Below, in pieces: positions 7,883-16,340 of a stretch of DNA of 64,000 bases. Positions within the stretch are counted from its first letter, which is position 1; each line of letters opens with the position of its first letter. The translations under genes and the position numbers were made by a program. Source of the stretch: Escherichia coli. GTDB taxonomy: Bacteria; Pseudomonadota; Gammaproteobacteria; Enterobacterales; Enterobacteriaceae. The DNA is taken from assembly GCF_013122565.1 (NCBI RefSeq), contig NZ_CP053258.1. One strand, 5' to 3'. The notes beneath the pieces are model-generated. The model saw only the letters and a list, made by a program, of their open reading frames with translations. It was not told where the DNA came from and made no database searches.

Positions 7883-7965
7883 CACACGTCATTGATTAAG
7901 ATCACCACGCGTTACCTGGGTGGTCTTAATCTGTTTATCTCTTTTTCTTTCAAGATATAAATGCA

Positions 7966-9636
7966 ATGGATAATGCAGAACTCGCCATTGGTATCGATCT
8001 CGGTACTACCAATAGTTTAATTGCCGTCTGGAAAGACGGTGCCGCGCAATTAATTCCAAATAAGTTCGGTGAATATTTAACACCATCCATAATTAGCATG
8101 GATGAAAATAATCATATTTTAGTCGGAAAACCGGCTGTATCACGGCGTACTTCGCATCCGGATAAAACGGCAGCGTTATTTAAACGTGCAATGGGCAGTA
8201 ATACCAACTGGCGGTTAGGCAGCGACACATTTAACGCGCCAGAACTGTCCTCTTTGGTATTACGCTCATTAAAAGAAGATGCCGAAGAATTTCTGCAACG
8301 TCCAATTAAAGATGTGGTGATCTCCGTTCCGGCTTATTTCAGCGATGAACAACGCAAGCATACCCGTTTAGCAGCGGAGTTAGCCGGGTTAAATGCGGTA
8401 CGCTTAATTAATGAACCCACAGCAGCTGCAATGGCGTATGGCCTGCATACCCAACAAAATACCCGTTCGCTGGTGTTTGATCTCGGTGGCGGCACGTTTG
8501 ACGTTACGGTGCTTGAGTACGCCACGCCGGTGATTGAAGTTCACGCCTCCGCTGGCGACAACTTTCTTGGTGGCGAAGATTTTACCCATATGCTGGTCGA
8601 TGACGTTTTAAAGCGCGCGGATGTCGCCAGGAACACGCTTAACGAGAGTGAACTGGCAGCCTTGTACGCCTGCGTAGAAGCGGCAAAATGTAGTAATCAA
8701 TCGCCAATGCACATTCGCTGGCAGTACCAGGATGAAACGCGGGAGTGCGAATTTTACGAGAACGAACTGGAAGATTTGTGGTTGCCGCTGCTCAATCGCT
8801 TGCGAGTGCCGATTGAACAGGCGTTGCGCGATGCGCGTCTGAAGCCGAGTCAAATCGACAGTCTGGTGCTGGTTGGCGGCGCGTCACAAATGCCGCTGGT
8901 GCAGCGAATCGCCGTGCGTCTGTTTGGCAAATTACCGTATCAAAGTTACGATCCGAGCACCATTGTCGCGCTGGGCGCAGCAATCCAGGCCGCCTGCCGC
9001 TTACGCAGTGAAGATATTGAAGAAGTGATCCTCACTGATATTTGCCCTTACTCGTTGGGTGTTGAAGTTAACCGTCAGGGCGTATCCGGCATTTTCTCGC
9101 CGATTATTGAACGAAACACCACAGTACCGGTGTCGCGTGTAGAAACGTACTCGACCATGCACCCGGAGCAGGATTCAATTACGGTTAACGTCTATCAGGG
9201 AGAAAACCACAAAGTTAAAAATAACATTCTGGTGGAATCCTTCGATGTGCCGTTGAAGAAAACCGGGGCTTATCAGTCGATTGATATTCGTTTTAGTTAT
9301 GATATCAACGGCTTGCTTGAAGTTGACGTACTTCTGGAAGACGGCAGCGTTAAGTCCAGAGTCATTAATCATAGCCCGGTAACATTGAGCGCGCAGCAGA
9401 TCGAAGAGAGTCGGACGCGGTTATCCGCATTGAAAATTTATCCGCGCGATATGCTCATCAATCGCACCTTTAAAGCCAAACTGGAAGAGTTGTGGGCGCG
9501 AGCGCTGGGTGACGAGCGAGAAGAGATTGGCCGGGTGATCACCGATTTTGATGCGGCGTTGCAGTCAAACGATATGGCCCGCGTCGATGAGGTCAGGCGG
9601 CGGGCGAGCGATTATTTAGCCATTGAGATCCCATAA
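7966..9636 (+). CDS. hscC: Hsp70-family chaperone HscC, 556 aa
   Basis: Hsp70 signatures IDLGTTNS and DLGGGTFD in translation; shorter than DnaK; AT-rich codon usage. Confidence 0.9.
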   Translation: MDNAELAIGIDLGTTNSLIAVWKDGAAQLIPNKFGEYLTPSIISMDENNHILVGKPAVSRRTSHPDKTAALFKRAMGSNTNWRLGSDTFNAPELSSLVLRSLKEDAEEFLQRPIKDVVISVPAYFSDEQRKHTRLAAELAGLNAVRLINEPTAAAMAYGLHTQQNTRSLVFDLGGGTFDVTVLEYATPVIEVHASAGDNFLGGEDFTHMLVDDVLKRADVARNTLNESELAALYACVEAAKCSNQSPMHIRWQYQDETRECEFYENELEDLWLPLLNRLRVPIEQALRDARLKPSQIDSLVLVGGASQMPLVQRIAVRLFGKLPYQSYDPSTIVALGAAIQAACRLRSEDIEEVILTDICPYSLGVEVNRQGVSGIFSPIIERNTTVPVSRVETYSTMHPEQDSITVNVYQGENHKVKNNILVESFDVPLKKTGAYQSIDIRFSYDINGLLEVDVLLEDGSVKSRVINHSPVTLSAQQIEESRTRLSALKIYPRDMLINRTFKAKLEELWARALGDEREEIGRVITDFDAALQSNDMARVDEVRRRASDYLAIEIP

Positions 9637-9644
9637 ACACGGCT

Positions 9645-9676
9645 GCCGGATGCGGCGTAAACGCTGCATCCGGCAT
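9645..9676. repeat. REP-like palindromic unit between convergent hscC and djlC
   Basis: GCCGGATGCGGCGTAAACGCTGCATCCGGC with GCCGGATGC/GCATCCGGC arms. Confidence 0.6.
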
Positions 9677-9694
9677 CGGCGCCAAAACACATCG

Positions 9695-11146
9695 TCAACT
9701 AAACAACATCGCGATTTTGCCGAGAGCATAACCTATCACCAGCACCGTTAAACTGATTTTGATAATGCCGGTAATGCTCTGTGGTTTTTCATCCTCATCA
9801 TTTTTTTCTTCATGGTTTTCAGGTGTTGGCTCATCGACATCTTCATCCTCCGGCTCGAGTTTCACTTTCGTCAACAGCATCCGGGTGATGATGGCCTCTA
9901 ATGGATGAGCATCTCCACCTTCCAGCCTTGTATTAAGACGGGCCAGCATCTCTTGTTTCGGAAACGCTTCAAGTACTACCTGTTCCGCTACCCGATACAA
10001 ATCCAGTAACGGTGAATCTTGCTCTGTCTCGCTACCGACTCTCGATTTCCACCACGCCCATGCTTTGCGCTTGAAAAATAACGATTCAATAAACGATTGA
10101 CCTAACGGCGATAATTTTCCGCTATGTAAAATTTCCGCCCATAACAGCCGCGTCCGGGCGCTCTCACCAGGAACATATTTCAACGGTTTACCTTGCACAT
10201 CAACCATGCTCTGCGCTTCGATAACCATCACTAACAGCGCGAAATAATCCGGGCAATGTTGTGCGCTCCACTGCAACAACAAATTATCGGCTTGTGTAGA
10301 TGGGTAACTCTCCCGGTATGCGCAGAGATCGGCAAGCAGGCTTTCCCCCTCGCCGCAGTACAAACGTTGTGCACACTGGTAATACCGGGCATCTTCGCTT
10401 TCTGGTTCTTCCATTTGCCACTGTTGGGCAACAGGAATGAGTTCCGCCATACCTGTTTGCACCGAGCTGTACCAGCGCAACAGTTTGCGATGTAACTTTG
10501 CATCATCAGGAATGAACCACGGACCTTCCATCGCCAAAAACGCAGTGACATAGTCAGGATGGTAACGGCAGCAACGTTCCAGCGCGAAGTAATACTCAAC
10601 AGTCTGGTTCTGCAACGCAACAGGATATTCCAGAAGGCTAAGGAAATCGAAACAATCACCAGCCTGAATGGCCTCAAGAAAAGCCTCCCTTTCTTCCTCA
10701 TCCATTCCTTCGCTGTCATTAAACGAATGCCAGTTCAAACGCTCTGCCAGCAAAGAAGCACAATTTAATGAAAGATATCGCGCTTCTATAGCGATTGCAC
10801 ACAGCGGCCAGCGTAATTGATCGACATCCTCCATGTTCCAGGTATTTAATTGCTGAATAAATTTCTGCCAGGCGGAGGGCTGAAAACGATCACTTTCTGA
10901 ATCCAGTAATGCCCTGAATGCACATAGTATTTCATGTTCAGCGGCAGCATCTTTTTCTTCATCATCTGCTTCCTCGACAGGATTTACCGCCAATCGCAAG
11001 GCCTCTTCATAGGCCTGGCGTAATGCTTTAAACCCCTGCGGATCGGTTTCGGGATGACACAACGGTAAGCGAGCAAGATAAGCCTGGCGGATAATGTCTA
11101 TTTGCGTCGTGCTTTCAATTTCGAGGATTTGCCAACATGTTTTCAT
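9695..11146 (-). CDS. djlC: J-domain co-chaperone DjlC (HscC partner), 483 aa, C-terminal membrane anchor
   Basis: N-terminal J-like domain (…[18 protein letters not shown]…); hydrophobic C-terminal tail; overlaps ybeU stop by 4 nt. Confidence 0.85.
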
Positions 11147-11850
11147 AGGTCGCTCACATCCTTAAGCGTTACCGGGCATTCAGGCTGGACAGTCAATGGC
11201 TGCCAGGGAAGCGTGGCATAGAAACGATCGCTTCCCGCTGCCAGCTCTTCGAACATCCGACTCCCGGCGCTATCGTATTTGTACAGGGTTAGCGCCTCGC
11301 GTAACGAAGCGTTGTCTTCGCATTGAGAAGATTGCCAGTAGAGACGCCCTAGTGAATAGGCAGAAAAATAGTGCATCCAGCTGTGATAGTAATGGTGTGC
11401 TCGGACGTAGACGCGCGATTGCAGCCATAAACTCTCGTCTTCCGTCAGCCACTTGTTGAGCACACCGACCCGTGACAGAAACCCCATTCGAACATAATCC
11501 CAGGCTTTGATTCCACCTTCTCCACAGCACATAGCGGTTTGGGCAACGAATTGGGTATAAATCAACCCTCTCTCCGAGCCACCAGCAATTAATGCTTTCC
11601 ACTCTTCAGGGGAAGAGCGATGCCATGTCAGATATAAGCCAGCTAAATCATTAGCATGACCATCATCAGTCATCTGATAAATAGTCTGAATTAAATCATC
11701 ACGATTATTTATTCCCCAGGATGATGAGAGATCGAATTCTTTTATCCCAGTATACATTTTCGGCGAGTCATGCGCGGGTTTGCAACCCTGATTAAGTATT
11801 TCCATTGGCGCAGAAAGCGCAAAAAGAAGATATTGTTCTTCCTTATTCAT
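11143..11850 (-). CDS. ybeU: DUF1266-family protein YbeU, 235 aa
   Basis: ORF 11143..11850; paralogous to ybeR in this window; translationally coupled to djlC. Confidence 0.85.
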
Positions 11851-11951
11851 TTGTTAATAATCCCTTAAGTGCATTAACTGACTACTTTTTTATTATTGAT
11901 GAGTATAAACTTGACGCTTTCAAAATAAAAAGAAAATCGAATCATTCACAG

Positions 11952-12506
11952 ATGAATAAAAAATTAATGTATATATTCGCAATATTTATAGTTGCAGCAA
12001 TTACCTGTATTAGCCAACCCAAGAAAACGACGTTGCGTGATAAAGCCATGGCGAATTATGCCTTTGATTATTTAAGCTCACCAGGCAGTCTTCCATTCAC
12101 CACGGCAGCCACGGAGCTTTCCGCGATTCATGGTCACTCAACGTCGCAATATCGCCTTGGCGAATTTTATCTTCATGGTAGCGACGGGAAACCACTGGAT
12201 TATACACAGGCGAGATACTGGTATGAGCAATCAGCAGAACAGGAAAATCCACGCGCGCAAAGTAAACTGGGGTGGATCTACCTCAAAGGTCTGGGGGTCA
12301 AACCCGACACCCGTAAAGCAATTCTCTGGTATAAGGAAGCAGCTGAACAAGGGTATGCTCATGCTCAATATACTTTAGGTTTGATCTACAGAAATGGCTC
12401 AGGTATTAATGTTAACCATTATGAATCTCAAAAATGGTTAAAACTGGCCGCCAAACAACATTACAAAAATGCGGAAAGATTACTTGCCGGGCTTCCCGCA
12501 CATTAA
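11952..12506 (+). CDS. ybeT: Sel1-repeat protein YbeT, 184 aa
   Basis: Internal ATG at 11952 (MNKKLMYIF..., signal/TM-like N-terminus); Sel1-type repeats; longer ORF from 11805 rejected. Confidence 0.75.
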
Positions 12507-12515
12507 CGTCGACGG

Positions 12516-13943
12516 TCACCCGAACAGATGGAGTATTTTCCCTATCAAACCAGCAAAGATAAAAATATAGAAAATAATTTTGATGACGCCCAGACAGCCC
12601 GGCCCACCATCATCAACGGGCATTGGTTGCGGTTGCGGCTCCGGTTCGACGGTTTGCTTCTCGGCAAAATTCGCCGACTGAATTAATAACCGTCGAATAA
12701 TTAATGCCTCCAGAGGACAACGATCTTCTGCATCAAGGCGGCTCACAATCGGCATTAATGATTCTTCTGTAGGTTGGCTGGCCTGCACTAATTGTTTGGC
12801 AACTAGATATAATGGCCATAAGGTATGTTCTGTATCACGCGTGAGTGAGATCCGCGGCTTACGTCCTTTGTGCAAAACCATCTCGACCAGTGAACGCCCC
12901 AGAGCAGAGAGTTTTTCATCGCTGAGTATTTCGTATAAATGAAAACGCGTACGGGCGCTGTCGCCGGGGACATAAAGTAGCGGTTTTCCCTGGTCGTTAA
13001 CCAGTTCACGAGCTTCAATCATCATCACCACTAACGGGTAATAATCGACCCGATGCTGACGACACCATTGCAACATTAAAGCATCCGCCTGGGTGGAGGG
13101 ATACTCGCGCCAGTAGTCACAAAGTTCTGCCAGCAGGCTTTCGCCTTCTCCACAATAGACGCGTTGCGCGTATTCATAATAACGCGCATCTTCATTATCA
13201 GGTTCAGCTTCCCGCCACGACCGGGCGTAATCCAGGAGTTCGGGGATATCCAGGCGACCTGCGCTATACCAGCGGAGTAAATTTCTGTGCAGTTTTGCAT
13301 CATCGGGGATAATCACTGCGCGATGTTGCGATAAATACAATGTCAGCCATTCTGGATGCGATGACCAAATCCGGGCGAACATTTGGTAAAAATCGATGGT
13401 GTCATTTTGCACGGCAACGGGCAGATGCAGAATGGTCTGGAAGTTAAAAACATTTCCCTTCGCAATGGCATATAAAAAGGATTCCAGTTCTTCTTCGTCT
13501 ATTTCCCCGGTGTTTTCCTCCTGCAACCACCGCAATCTTTCTGCTAATAACACCACACACTCGAAGGATAAATGGGCAGTGTTCATGGCGATTGTGCACA
13601 GCGACCAGCGTAATTCATCAATCTCTTCCATTGAGCAATAATTTAATTGCTGAATGAATCGCTGCCAGGCGGAAGGCAGAAAACGTTCGCTATCAGAAGC
13701 AAGTAAAGCACGAAAGGCGAGCAGAATTTCATGTTCTGCTACCTCATATTCTTCTGGTTGCCAAACAGATTTAGCAGGCGACTGCGCAATCCGTAGCGCC
13801 TCCTCATACGCCTGACGAAGTTGTTTAAAACCCTGCGGATCGGTTTCTGGATGAAAGGACGGTAACAGCGCCAGATAAGCGCGGCGGATAATATCGACGT
13901 CAGTCGTTTCCTCTATGTTGAGGATCTTCCAGCAATTTTTCAT
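12516..13943 (-). CDS. djlB: J-domain co-chaperone DjlB, 475 aa, C-terminal membrane anchor
   Basis: Paralog of djlC (N-terminal [39 protein letters not shown]); hydrophobic C-terminus. Confidence 0.85.
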
Positions 13944-14647
13944 AGGTCGCTCATATCCTTAAGCGTTTCAGGGCATGCAGAATAGTAAGCCAATGGTTGC
14001 CAGGACAAGGTAGGGTAATACGCATCATCACTGGCAAATAATTGATAAAACATATCATTGCCGGAATCGTCGTATTCTTTACGCGCTAAGAATTCACGTA
14101 ATAACTGAAGATTATCATCTTCGGGAGACTGCCAATATTGCCGACCAAAGGTATAACCGGCAAAGTATTGCTGCCAGTTACTATAATAACGTAGCGCCCG
14201 TAGATGAATGCGCGACTGGATCCATAGACTTTCTTCTTCGCTCAACCAGTTATTAAGTACGCCCATTCGGCTTAAAAAACCCATCCGGACATAATCCCAG
14301 GCTTTGATTCCCCCTTCGCCACAGCATTCGGCGGTGCTGGCGACAAATTGCGCATAAGCCTGACCTTGCTCATTTAGTTCAGCAAGATAGTCACGCCATT
14401 CACACGGAGAATAACGAAACCAGCGGTGATAAAACCCTGCCAACCGAGCGGCATGACCGTTATCGATCATTCGGTGAATTGTGCGCAGCAGGTCATCACG
14501 GTCATCAATTCCCCATGAGGAAGAAAGGTCAAAAAAGCATGTACCTAAATACATTTTGGGAGATGAATGCGAAGGTAAACAGCATTCATTGCGTATTTCC
14601 ATCGGAGTGGAAAGTGCAAACAATATTTTTTGCGACCCCATGTCCAT
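13940..14647 (-). CDS. ybeR: DUF1266-family protein YbeR, 235 aa
   Basis: ORF 13940..14647; paralog of ybeU; 4-nt overlap with djlB start. Confidence 0.85.
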
Positions 14648-14804
14648 ATAATTTATCCTTAAACATTCATTTAATGAATGTAAACTACATTTCGAGACTC
14701 AGTTATTTATACTTTTCTGACGCAACATAATACGCATAAAATAAGGCTTACGCAAAAATGGAACACATAAAAATATAATATGTTTTATCTACAACCATAA
14801 GGAA

Positions 14805-15788
14805 ATGATAATGATTTTTACGTCAAGTTGCTGCGATAATTTATCAATAGATGAGATTATCGAACGTGCTGAAAAAGGCGATTGCGAGGCTCAATATATT
14901 GTTGGGTTTTATTATAATCGCGATAGCGCAATTGACTCTCCGGACGACGAAAAGGCCTTTTACTGGCTGAAGCTGGCCGCTGAGCAAGGTCATTGTGAAG
15001 CACAATATTCCTTAGGGCAAAAGTATACCGAGGATAAAAGCCGTCATAAAGATAATGAGCAAGCCATCTTTTGGCTGAAAAAAGCTGCCCTACAAGGCCA
15101 TACTTTCGCTTCCAACGCCCTTGGCTGGATACTGGATCGTGGAGAAGACCCCAACTATAAAGAAGCGGTTGCCTGGTATCAGATAGCCGCGGAGAGCGGA
15201 ATGTCTTATGCGCAAAATAATCTTGGGTGGATGTACAGAAATGGCAACGGAGTCGCACAAGACTATACGCTGGCATTTTTCTGGTACAAACAAGCTGCAT
15301 TACAAGGCCATAGTGACGCGCAAAACAATCTGGCCGATCTTTATGAAGACGGAAAAGGCGTTGCTCAAAACGAGACACTCGCCGCATTCTGGTATTTGAA
15401 AAGCGCACAGCAGGGTAATCGGCATGCTCAGTTTCAAATTGCATGGGATTATAACGCTGGCGAAGGGGTGGACCAGGACTATAAGCAAGCGATGTACTGG
15501 TATCTGAAGGCTGCCGCTCAGGGGAGCGTCGGCGCTTACGTCAACATCGGTTATATGTATAAACACGGACAAGGCGTTGAGAAAGATTATCAGGCCGCCT
15601 TTGAATGGTTTACGAAAGCCGCTGAATGCAATGACGCCACAGCCTGGTATAACCTGGCCATTATGTATCACTACGGAGAAGGAAGACCTGTCGATCTCCG
15701 ACAGGCTCTCGACCTGTATCGTAAAGTTCAGTCATCCGGAACCAGAGATGTCAGTCAAGAAATTCGTGAGATTGAAGATTTACTGTAG
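14805..15788 (+). CDS. ybeQ: Sel1-repeat (TPR-like) protein YbeQ, about 325 aa
   Basis: Multiple Sel1 repeats (…A.WY.KAA.QG… pattern) in translation; start may be the ATG at 14811. Confidence 0.85.
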   Translation: MIMIFTSSCCDNLSIDEIIERAEKGDCEAQYIVGFYYNRDSAIDSPDDEKAFYWLKLAAEQGHCEAQYSLGQKYTEDKSRHKDNEQAIFWLKKAALQGHTFASNALGWILDRGEDPNYKEAVAWYQIAAESGMSYAQNNLGWMYRNGNGVAQDYTLAFFWYKQAALQGHSDAQNNLADLYEDGKGVAQNETLAAFWYLKSAQQGNRHAQFQIAWDYNAGEGVDQDYKQAMYWYLKAAAQGSVGAYVNIGYMYKHGQGVEKDYQAAFEWFTKAAECNDATAWYNLAIMYHYGEGRPVDLRQALDLYRKVQSSGTRDVSQEIREIEDLL

Positions 15789-15857
15789 AGATAAAAACAA
15801 GGGCCGGGGAATTTCATTCGGCCCATATTCTATTTATTACTCTGCGTAATCAGACTA

Positions 15858-16340
15858 TTACGGCTCAAACGGGCGTCTCTGGAACTGATCATGACCACAT
15901 TTCGGGCATAGCGTCAGCACTTCCGGTGTGTAGATCGGGAGATGGAAGTGACATTTCTCGCAGACCAGATTCCCCAGCCCTACCACTTCTCCGCTGTGAT
16001 AAACCCCATGATGATTGAGGTCCTGGAAAACTTCGCGCCATTCAAGCTGCGTTTTATCGGTGATGTCTGCCAGCTCCTGCCATAAGCTTTCTTTAATCAC
16101 CCGCATAAAGACGCTGTCAGATTCTTCTTTCAGGCTCTCTTCATAGCTCATGGCGAACTCTTCCAGGTCACGTCTGACAGCTCGCGTCAGCTCATCGACC
16201 TCGGTTCGCGTTAACTCCCCTGTTTTTATTACGCGCTCGCGCGCCTGTTCCACCAGTGCGTCGATATCACGTTCGCCATTGCGCAGACGTTCGCTCAGTG
16301 ACGCGACCAGTTCACGGTAATATTGAGCAACCTTGTTCAT
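15858..16340 (-). CDS. ybeL: Zinc-ribbon DUF1451 protein YbeL, 160 aa
   Basis: ORF 15858..16340; C-terminal CEKCHF…CPKCG zinc-ribbon. Confidence 0.85.
   Translation of the reverse strand: MNKVAQYYRELVASLSERLRNGERDIDALVEQARERVIKTGELTRTEVDELTRAVRRDLEEFAMSYEESLKEESDSVFMRVIKESLWQELADITDKTQLEWREVFQDLNHHGVYHSGEVVGLGNLVCEKCHFHLPIYTPEVLTLCPKCGHDQFQRRPFEP

What the first reader, a model, noticed from the sequence alone, without database searches (positions are those of the whole stretch)
9695..13943. Both J-proteins carry HPE in place of the canonical HPD tripeptide and end in a hydrophobic tail anchor
In the translated N-termini the loop reads [13 protein letters not shown] (DjlC) and [13 protein letters not shown] (DjlB), so the position normally occupied by the Asp of the HPD motif is Glu in both paralogs. 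Both proteins end in a single hydrophobic stretch of about 20 residues (…[23 protein letters not shown] and …[23 protein letters not shown]), consistent with tail anchoring. A conserved non-canonical motif in both copies suggests a specialised Hsp70 interface.
Basis: seen in the sequence. Interest (0 to 1): 0.5.

Follow-up and report, generated by a model that had tools for sequence, protein, structure and literature searches.

The report
Known HPE, tail-anchored HscC co-chaperones DjlB/DjlC
These are the Escherichia genes djlC and djlB, membrane-anchored helper proteins of the minor Hsp70 chaperone HscC; their unusual His-Pro-Glu motif and C-terminal membrane anchor are really there, but both have already been published.

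Summary
djlC (9695-11146, minus strand, 483 aa) and djlB (12516-13943, minus strand, 475 aa) both read H31-P32-E33. Each has one hydrophobic segment, at the extreme C-terminus. A profile alignment places E33 on Asp35 of the DnaJ HPD motif (hhalign probability 95.7%). An AlphaFold model of the N-terminus retrieves solved J-domains. The only literal HPD, at DjlC residue 196, lies outside the J-domain.

HPE is a family hallmark rather than a quirk of these two copies. All 113 close homologues with an intact N-terminus carry HPE. Among 98 distant cluster representatives, 86 carry HPE and none carries HPD, although Asp is one nucleotide away.

The partner Hsp70, HscC, lies next door. It keeps the residues that bind Asp35 in DnaK (R167, Q378, L391, P419) but changes the surrounding J-binding surface.

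Neither part is new. The HPE triad of DjlB/DjlC is described in PMC10410713 and PMC13254874. DjlC is an experimentally established tail-anchored inner-membrane protein (PMC6794478). DjlC-specific stimulation of HscC is reviewed in PMC8215388. Verdict: real, correctly interpreted, already known, low interest.

One less-explored side observation: HscC, the HPE J-protein and a DUF1266 protein form a gene module conserved across distant bacteria.

The parts
9695..11146 (-). djlC (ybeV) CDS, 483 aa: co-chaperone DjlC
   Evidence: ORF. RefSeq annotation of the syntenic E. coli locus reads 'co-chaperone DjlC'. It is 95% identical to cluster P0001, named co-chaperone DjlC.
10985..11146 (-). DjlC J-domain, residues 1-54 (helices 4-8, 16-29, 36-54)
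   Evidence: Pfam PF00226 match to residues 4-47, weak (E=0.038). hhalign to the DnaJ J-domain gives probability 95.7%. AF2 models. Foldseek top hits are solved J-domains; 5nro_B aligns at rmsd 2.0 A over 56 columns.
11048..11056 (-). DjlC H31-P32-E33 codons (CAT CCC GAA)
   Evidence: aligned to DnaJ H33-P34-D35.
9866..10972 (-). DjlC all-alpha middle domain, residues 59-427 (Pfam PF27158 DjlB_C_2nd in homologues)
   Evidence: AF2 full-length model with pLDDT mostly above 85. PF27158 is precomputed on homologues. Only weak TPR-like fold matches were found in the PDB.
9782..9856 (-). DjlC acidic disordered linker, residues 431-455
   Evidence: pLDDT below 50; sequence [25 protein letters not shown].
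9698..9775 (-). DjlC C-terminal transmembrane tail anchor, residues 458-483
   Evidence: Contains the only Kyte-Doolittle windows of at least 1.6. AF2 predicts helix 458-482. Experimentally a tail anchor according to PMC6794478.
12516..13943 (-). djlB (ybeS) CDS, 475 aa: paralogous J-protein, 50% identical to DjlC overall and 64% in the first 70 residues
   Evidence: Pfam PF00226 E=0.00069.
13845..13853 (-). DjlB H31-P32-E33 codons (CAT CCA GAA)
12519..12599 (-). DjlB C-terminal hydrophobic tail, residues about 449-475
   Evidence: Kyte-Doolittle maximum 2.37 at residues 449-468, and no other hydrophobic window.
7966..9636 (+). hscC (ybeW), 556 aa: the short Hsp70 that these J-proteins serve; convergent with djlC
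   Evidence: Its interface residues are mapped against DnaK.
11143..11850 (-). ybeU, DUF1266 protein; its stop codon overlaps the djlC start (ATGA)
   Evidence: The DUF1266 and J-protein gene pair recurs in L002, L003 and L006.
13940..14647 (-). ybeR, DUF1266 paralogue; its stop codon overlaps the djlB start (ATGA)
11952..12506 (+). ybeT, Sel1/TPR-repeat protein divergent from ybeU-djlC
14811..15788 (+). ybeQ, Sel1/TPR-repeat protein divergent from ybeR-djlB

Best explanation
The region holds djlC and djlB, two paralogous class C J-domain proteins that act as the dedicated co-chaperones of the neighbouring short Hsp70, HscC. Each protein has four parts: an N-terminal J-domain (about residues 1-54), an all-alpha middle domain (PF27158), an acidic disordered linker, and a single C-terminal transmembrane helix. 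The helix inserts post-translationally, which leaves the rest of the protein on the cytoplasmic face of the inner membrane. The J-domain docks on ATP-bound HscC over the interdomain linker. The HPE loop does the job of HPD: His31 contacts the linker backbone (the equivalent of DnaK L391, HscC L356), Pro32 packs on HscC P388, and the Glu33 carboxylate hydrogen-bonds R146 and Q341, the equivalents of DnaK R167 and Q378. This triggers ATP hydrolysis and traps the client at the membrane. Glu rather than Asp is a selected hallmark of this whole J-protein clade. It has co-evolved with HscC-specific remodelling of the surrounding interface. Status of each step: the sequence features, their conservation, the alignment and the gene linkage are shown here. 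DjlC-specific stimulation of HscC and DjlC tail anchoring are shown in the literature. The atomic contacts of Glu33 and any role of Glu in partner discrimination are inferred.
For: Identity of the locus. HPE at residues 31-33 and a single terminal hydrophobic segment. J-domain assignment: Pfam hits; hhalign probability 95.7% with E33 opposite D35, where the DnaJ sequence was first verified against 5NRO_B; AF2 model plus Foldseek hits to J-domains. Conservation: 113 of 113 close homologues have HPE. Among 98 representatives of 50%-identity clusters there are 86 HPE and no HPD. Both GAA and GAG codons are used, and Asp codons are one step away. HscC keeps R167, Q378, L391, P419 and E206. It deletes the loop at DnaK 208-211 and changes G379-G380 to AA, L392 to T, D477 to S/T and D481 to N, consistently in four HscCs that are 44-60% identical to one another. 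On the J side, DnaJ K26 and R27 are replaced by Leu and Ala, while R22, K48 and K51 are kept as R20, K40 and R43. HPE-type J-protein genes abut HscC-type Hsp70 genes in L002, L003 and L005, as does the related RPD variant in L006. Architecture: AF2 full-length model, mean pLDDT 84.4. Literature: HPE in DjlB/DjlC (PMC10410713; PMC13254874); only DjlC stimulates HscC, and both proteins are tail-anchored (PMC8215388); DjlC is a bona fide tail-anchored membrane protein (PMC6794478).
Against: The Pfam J-domain scores are weak (E=0.038 for DjlC), and phmmer found no PDB J-domain with the DjlC N-terminus as query. The J-domain call therefore depends on profile and structure evidence. Because the direct partners of Asp35 are unchanged in HscC, the sequence gives no obvious reason why Glu would be required. 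No complex model could be computed. Tail anchoring of DjlB itself has not been shown experimentally in any paper I could read. The primary papers (Kluck 2002, Peschke 2018) are not held in the library and were read only through citing papers.
Confidence: 0.9

Rival explanations
1. HPE is a functionally neutral, conservative variant of HPD that was fixed once in the ancestor of this clade. On this view Asp would work equally well and the Glu carries no partner-specificity information.
For: R167, Q378, L391 and P419, the DnaK residues that contact HPD, are all identical in four distant HscCs. Glu and Asp are chemically similar. A 2026 review calls HPE the only replacement that seems tolerated (PMC13254874).
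Against: No HPD was found among 113 close homologues or 98 distant representatives, even though Asp is a single third-position change from GAA or GAG and synonymous GAA/GAG turnover has occurred. That pattern fits purifying selection on Glu. The loop after HPE is 6 residues shorter than in DnaJ and carries an invariant DPxGF. HscC changes D481, which partners R167 in DnaK, to Asn. The local geometry is therefore plausibly different.
Confidence: 0.25
2. The HPE domains are degenerate, inactive J-like domains (so-called type IV J-proteins) that no longer drive an Hsp70 ATPase. DjlB and DjlC would then work independently of HscC.
For: Weak Pfam scores. Most substitutions in HPD abolish function (PMC8215388).
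Against: DjlC stimulates the HscC ATPase (Kluck 2002, as reported in PMC8215388). Deleting hscC and deleting djlB plus djlC give the same Cd2+ sensitivity. The motif is strictly conserved and the genes are linked to HscC-type Hsp70 genes across phyla.
Confidence: 0.03
3. The C-terminal hydrophobic stretch is not a membrane anchor. It would instead be a buried helix, an oligomerisation element or a degradation signal.
For: The uncharged core between the two conserved lysines is only about 13 residues, and hydrophobicity is moderate in DjlC (Kyte-Doolittle 1.99).
Against: [quoted passage not shown] The terminal hydrophobic helix follows a disordered acidic linker, so it is not packed on the globular part. 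It is conserved in position in all full-length homologues although its sequence drifts. In the 900-aa relatives it is replaced by a polytopic DUF805 membrane domain.
Confidence: 0.03

Closest known systems
E. coli K-12 DjlC (YbeV) and DjlB (YbeS), co-chaperones of HscC
   Same: Same genes in the same synteny: rihA-hscC-djlC-ybeU-ybeT-djlB-ybeR-ybeQ-ybeL-leuS. Same lengths (483 and 475 aa), the same HPE triad and the same tail anchor.
   Different: Only allelic divergence. The 8-kb locus is at most 97.9% identical to any complete E. coli genome in the collection. DjlC is 95% identical to the main Escherichia cluster representative.
DnaJ J-domain bound to DnaK (PDB 5NRO)
   Same: Same helix II, loop, helix III hairpin. 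His and Pro of the motif are identical. The DnaJ basic residues R22, K48 and K51 are retained as R20, K40 and R43. The DnaK contact residues R167, Q378, L391 and P419 are retained in HscC.
   Different: Asp35 is Glu. The loop and helix III start are 6 residues shorter, with an invariant DPxGF. DnaJ K26 and R27 are lost. On the HscC side the acidic loop at DnaK 208-211 is deleted and D477 and D481 are neutralised. There is no G/F region, zinc finger or C-terminal client-binding domains; instead there is an all-alpha PF27158 domain and a TMD.
DjlA, the other membrane-anchored E. coli J-protein
   Same: A class C J-protein tethered to the inner membrane by one TM helix, with the J-domain in the cytoplasm (established knowledge; listed among E. 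coli class C JDPs in PMC8215388).
   Different: DjlA has an N-terminal TM helix, a C-terminal J-domain with canonical HPD, and works with DnaK. DjlB and DjlC have the opposite order, carry HPE, and work with HscC.
HscB-HscA, the dedicated J-protein and Hsp70 pair for Fe-S cluster assembly
   Same: A specialised Hsp70 with its own exclusive class C J-protein encoded nearby, and no nucleotide exchange factor needed (PMC8215388).
   Different: HscB keeps HPD, is soluble and delivers IscU. The clients of DjlB/DjlC-HscC are unknown.

Membership tests
J-domain proteins (Pfam PF00226) | Sequence match to the J-domain profile | tested here: met
   PF00226 E=0.00069 for DjlB and E=0.038 for DjlC, residues 4-47. 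The family profile against the DnaJ J-domain gives hhalign probability 95.7% and E=9.6e-9. The single-sequence match for DjlC is marginal on its own.
J-domain proteins (Pfam PF00226) | Helix II, loop, helix III hairpin fold | tested here: met
   The AF2 model has helices 16-26 and 36-54 with pLDDT 82-89. Foldseek PDB hits are almost all J-domains; 5nro_B aligns at rmsd 2.0 A over 56 columns, probability 0.95, although E-values are weak for so small a domain.
J-domain proteins (Pfam PF00226) | Canonical His-Pro-Asp tripeptide in the loop | tested here: not met
   HPE occupies the aligned position in both proteins. The literature treats HPE as the one tolerated variant and counts these proteins as J-domain proteins (PMC13254874; PMC10410713).
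J-domain proteins (Pfam PF00226) | Stimulates the ATPase of a partner Hsp70 | not testable with these tools
   Reported for DjlC with HscC by Kluck 2002, as cited in PMC8215388. Not reported for DjlB.
DjlB/DjlC family (Pfam PF27158, DjlB_C_2nd) | Second, all-alpha domain following the J-domain | tested here: met
   Homologues 41-95% identical over the full length carry precomputed PF27158. The domain is modelled with high confidence for residues 59-427. The local Pfam-A copy lacks this newer family, so the window proteins were not scored against it directly.
DjlB/DjlC family (Pfam PF27158, DjlB_C_2nd) | Genomic linkage to an HscC-type short Hsp70 | tested here: met
   hscC lies 59 bp from the djlC stop in the window. 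The same linkage holds in L002, L003, L005 and L006.
Tail-anchored membrane proteins | A single TMD within roughly the last 30 residues, no other hydrophobic segment and no signal peptide | tested here: met
   Kyte-Doolittle windows of at least 1.6 occur only at residues 457-465 (DjlC) and 446-457 (DjlB); each protein ends 0-1 residue after the helix.
Tail-anchored membrane proteins | The TMD is necessary and sufficient for post-translational membrane insertion | not testable with these tools
   Shown for E. coli DjlC (Peschke 2018, as described in PMC6794478). Assumed for DjlB (PMC8215388).

The most novel reading that the evidence does not exclude
Glu in place of Asp may be an obligatory recognition code. 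It would insulate an ancient HscC system, found in more than one phylum, from the DnaK/DnaJ network. That system may have more parts than the literature describes: the HscC-type Hsp70, the HPE J-protein, a translationally coupled DUF1266 protein, and TPR/Sel1 repeats. The repeats are fused to the J-protein in Firmicute-like genomes and encoded as separate genes (ybeT, ybeQ) in Escherichia. Distant members in which the His is replaced (NPE, KPE, PPE, RPD) would then be either a further re-coded interface or decayed J-domains.
Probability: 0.3. Interest if true: 0.5.

Novelty: already known. Interest (0 to 1): 0.12.

Why it matters
It would matter little as a discovery. The HPE triad of DjlB/DjlC, their pairing with HscC and the tail anchor of DjlC are all published. 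The remaining value is as a defined test case. This is the only natural HPD variant known to remain active, and this analysis shows it is under purifying selection across a wide clade while the Hsp70 residues that bind the Asp stay unchanged. That makes an E-to-D swap experiment a clean probe of how J-domain and Hsp70 pairs achieve orthogonality. The conserved DUF1266 partner gives a lead to the still unknown clients of HscC.

Tried and rejected
1. A phmmer search of the first 100 residues of DjlC against all PDB sequences found nothing, even at E up to 10. Single-sequence search is too weak here, so I switched to a profile comparison and a fold comparison.

2. I tested whether the literal HPD at DjlC 196-198 could be the true motif, and rejected it. 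It lies in the middle domain, 140 residues beyond the J-domain; DjlB has HPE there; and the aligned motif is at residues 31-33.

3. I looked for a compensating change in HscC at the residues that bind Asp35 in DnaK. There is none: R167 and Q378 are conserved. A simple swap of partner residues is therefore rejected, and only peripheral interface changes were found.

4. NCBIfam has no model that matches DjlB, DjlC, YbeU or YbeR.

5. A PDB fold search with the full-length model gave only weak TPR-like solenoid matches (E at least 0.076, TM at most 0.26). It does not identify the middle domain.

6. The primary papers Kluck 2002 and Peschke 2018 are not in the held library. A search for 'HPE motif' together with 'Hsp70' returned nothing.

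7. The residue-level geometry of Glu33 against R146 could not be examined, because no complex prediction tool is available.
Full report
WHAT IS THERE

Window 6.9-19 kb is the Escherichia locus rihA-hscC-djlC-ybeU-ybeT-djlB-ybeR-ybeQ-ybeL-leuS. The ORF list and a megablast of 7900-15900 against complete E. coli genomes establish this. That search matched 4,938 of 5,426 genomes; the best identity was 97.9%, and the match was annotated hscC / co-chaperone DjlC / djlB J-domain protein / DUF1266 / Sel1. The finding's coordinates run from the stop of djlC (9695-11146, minus strand, 483 aa) to the start of djlB (12516-13943, minus strand, 475 aa).

CHECK OF THE OBSERVATION

- HPE is at residues 31-33 in both proteins. 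The codons are CAT CCC GAA at 11048-11056 and CAT CCA GAA at 13845-13853.
- The two proteins are 50% identical overall and 64% identical in the first 70 residues. These are the same figures given in the Mayer review.
- Kyte-Doolittle 19-residue windows of at least 1.6 occur only at the extreme C-terminus of each protein.
- A full-length AlphaFold model (mean pLDDT 84.4) shows a J-domain (residues 1-54), an all-alpha domain (59-427), a disordered acidic linker (431-455, pLDDT below 50) and a terminal helix (458-482).

IS E33 REALLY AT THE HPD POSITION?

- Pfam PF00226 matches residues 4-47 of both proteins, but weakly: E=0.00069 for DjlB and 0.038 for DjlC. A plain phmmer search against PDB sequences found nothing.
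- I aligned 21 diverse family N-termini (A1) and compared that profile with the E. coli DnaJ J-domain. I had first verified the DnaJ sequence residue by residue against 5NRO chain B.
- hhalign gives probability 95.7% and E=9.6e-9. H31-P32-E33 falls on H33-P34-D35, followed by a 6-residue deletion relative to DnaJ.
- An AlphaFold model of the N-terminus (pLDDT 82-89 over residues 1-50) retrieves almost only solved J-domains from the PDB. These include the DnaK-bound DnaJ J-domain 5nro_B, at rmsd 2.0 A over 56 columns.
- DjlC does contain a literal HPD at residues 196-198. It sits in the middle domain, and DjlB has HPE there.

IS IT MORE THAN CHANCE?

The two copies are paralogues, so their agreement alone says little. 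Conservation across the family is the real test.

- Of 120 close homologues from Escherichia, Salmonella, Citrobacter, Enterobacter and Pseudocitrobacter (down to 41% identity), all 113 with an intact N-terminus have HPE at residue 31. Every full-length one ends in a hydrophobic stretch.
- An exhaustive HMMER search of 1.84 billion cluster representatives gave 1,533 hits.
- Among the best 150 of those, 98 carry the signature xPx-x-[D/N/A]-P-x-G-[F/Y]. The tripeptide counts are 86 HPE, 8 NPE, 2 RPD, 1 PPE, 1 KPE and no HPD.
- Both GAA and GAG encode the Glu in different loci, and Asp is one third-position change away.
- Glu is therefore maintained by selection across a clade that reaches about 25-30% identity and Firmicute-like genomes.

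THE Hsp70 SIDE

In the DnaK-DnaJ complex, H33 bonds the backbone of L391, P34 packs on P419, and D35 bonds R167 and Q378. The basic residues R22, K26, R27, K48 and K51 face E206, D211, E217 and D477 (PMC8215388). I verified my DnaK sequence against PDB entries. I then aligned it with the window's HscC and with three HscC-type proteins from distant loci that are 44-60% identical to one another.

| DnaK feature | State in all four HscCs |
|---|---|
| R167, Q378, L391, P419, E206 | kept |
| E217 | kept (Asp in L006) |
| Loop 208-211 | deleted |
| G379-G380 | A-A |
| Segment before the interdomain linker | two residues inserted |
| L392 | T |
| D477 | S or T |
| D481 (clamps R167/I168 in DnaK) | N |

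On the J side, R22, K48 and K51 persist as the invariant or near-invariant R20, K40 and R43, while K26 and R27 become Leu and Ala. The interface is therefore remodelled at its periphery, and the immediate partners of the acidic residue are unchanged. This fits a specialised interface. It does not show that Glu itself is the discriminator.

GENOMIC ASSOCIATION

| Locus | J-protein | HscC-type Hsp70 | DUF1266 gene |
|---|---|---|---|
| L002 | 899 aa, 30% identical, HPE, C-terminal DUF805 membrane domain | 559 aa, convergent | overlapping, upstream |
| L003 (Salmonella-like) | three paralogues | present | beside two of the three paralogues |
| L005 (Firmicute-like context) | 1,071 aa, HPE, fused TPRs | 566 aa, immediately upstream | not found |
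| L006/L007 | 454 aa, RPD variant | overlapping, upstream | overlapping, downstream |

WHAT IS ALREADY KNOWN

- Malinverni et al. 2023 report an HPE triad in about 1% of 280,000 J-domain proteins and name DjlB and DjlC (PMC10410713).
- The Mayer 2021 review reports several points (PMC8215388). Only DjlC stimulates HscC; DnaJ, CbpA and HscB do not. Both proteins are tail-anchored. The hscC and djlB/djlC deletions share Cd2+ sensitivity.
- Peschke et al. established DjlC as a bona fide tail-anchored protein. Its TMD is necessary and sufficient for insertion, which involves SRP, FtsY, YidC and DnaK (described in PMC6794478).
- Pfam now has a family named DjlB_C_2nd, PF27158.
- The two primary papers are not in the held library.

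MECHANISM

The best-supported reading, at confidence about 0.9, is the published one. DjlB and DjlC are inner-membrane tail-anchored class C J-proteins. They recruit and activate HscC at the cytoplasmic face of the membrane, and Glu33 plays the role of Asp35.

- Shown here: the motif, its alignment, its conservation and selection, the domain architecture, the gene linkage, and the HscC interface differences.
- Shown in the literature: ATPase stimulation by DjlC, and membrane insertion of DjlC.
- Inferred: the Glu33-R146/Q341 contacts, DjlB function and topology, and any role of Glu in keeping the system orthogonal to DnaK. The rival that Glu is a neutral variant gets about 0.25.

VERDICT

Interest is low (0.12).

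The side observations deserve more attention than the finding itself. They are the HscC / HPE J-protein / DUF1266 module conserved across distant bacteria, with TPRs either fused or encoded separately, and the NPE, RPD, KPE and PPE variants. DUF1266 appears in only one paper of the searchable library, and in an unrelated context.

Noticed in passing
window 7966-15788; loci L002 5979-11118, L003 8001-17377, L005 5276-10216, L006 5304-9069: A gene module recurs from Escherichia to Firmicute-like genomes: an HscC-type short Hsp70, a J-protein with a PF27158 domain, and a DUF1266 protein, often with overlapping start and stop codons. TPR repeats are fused to the J-protein in the Firmicute-like relatives. 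In the window, the Sel1/TPR proteins YbeT and YbeQ are separate genes beside each DUF1266/J pair. This hints at a multi-part system. DUF1266 appears in only one unrelated paper of the searchable library.
   Followed up: partly
proteins P0237, P0248, P0254, P0257, P0264 (NPE); P0213, P0239 (RPD); P0240 (KPE); P0229 (PPE); locus L004 331-3924, L006 7001-8365: Distant relatives with the same J-domain signature (xPx-x-DPxGF) replace the otherwise essential His: 8 have NPE, 2 RPD, 1 KPE and 1 PPE. The RPD protein in L006 still sits between an HscC-type Hsp70 gene and a DUF1266 gene. Whether these domains are active is unknown.
   Followed up: partly
window 11143-11146 and 13940-13943 (minus strand): The stop codons of ybeU and ybeR overlap the start codons of djlC and djlB as ATGA. 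This suggests translational coupling of each DUF1266/J-protein pair. The whole cassette (DUF1266, J-protein and a divergent Sel1 gene) is duplicated in tandem.
   Followed up: partly
window 9640-9690: The 58-bp gap between the convergent hscC and djlC stop codons holds a GC-rich palindrome, gccggatgcggcgtaaacgctgcatccggc. It looks like a REP element or a bidirectional terminator.
   Followed up: no
window 7900-15900: The locus is at most 97.9% identical to any of 5,426 complete E. coli genomes. 488 genomes have no match, and only 3,662 cover at least 80% of it. The hscC-djl region is therefore variable or partly deleted in many strains, and the window may come from a divergent Escherichia lineage. 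DjlC is 95% identical to the main cluster representative and 92% identical to the E. marmotae one.
   Followed up: no
window 10553-10561 (DjlC residues 196-198): A literal HPD tripeptide occurs in the middle domain of DjlC, where DjlB has HPE at the same aligned position. It is unrelated to the J-domain loop but could mislead motif scans.
   Followed up: yes
locus L002 6677-9376 (P0138) and about 30 similar proteins of 880-930 aa: A subfamily of roughly 900-aa relatives keeps the HPE J-domain and the PF27158 domain. In place of the single tail-anchor helix it has a long extension ending in a polytopic DUF805 membrane domain. Membrane attachment is conserved, but the way it is achieved is not.
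   Followed up: partly
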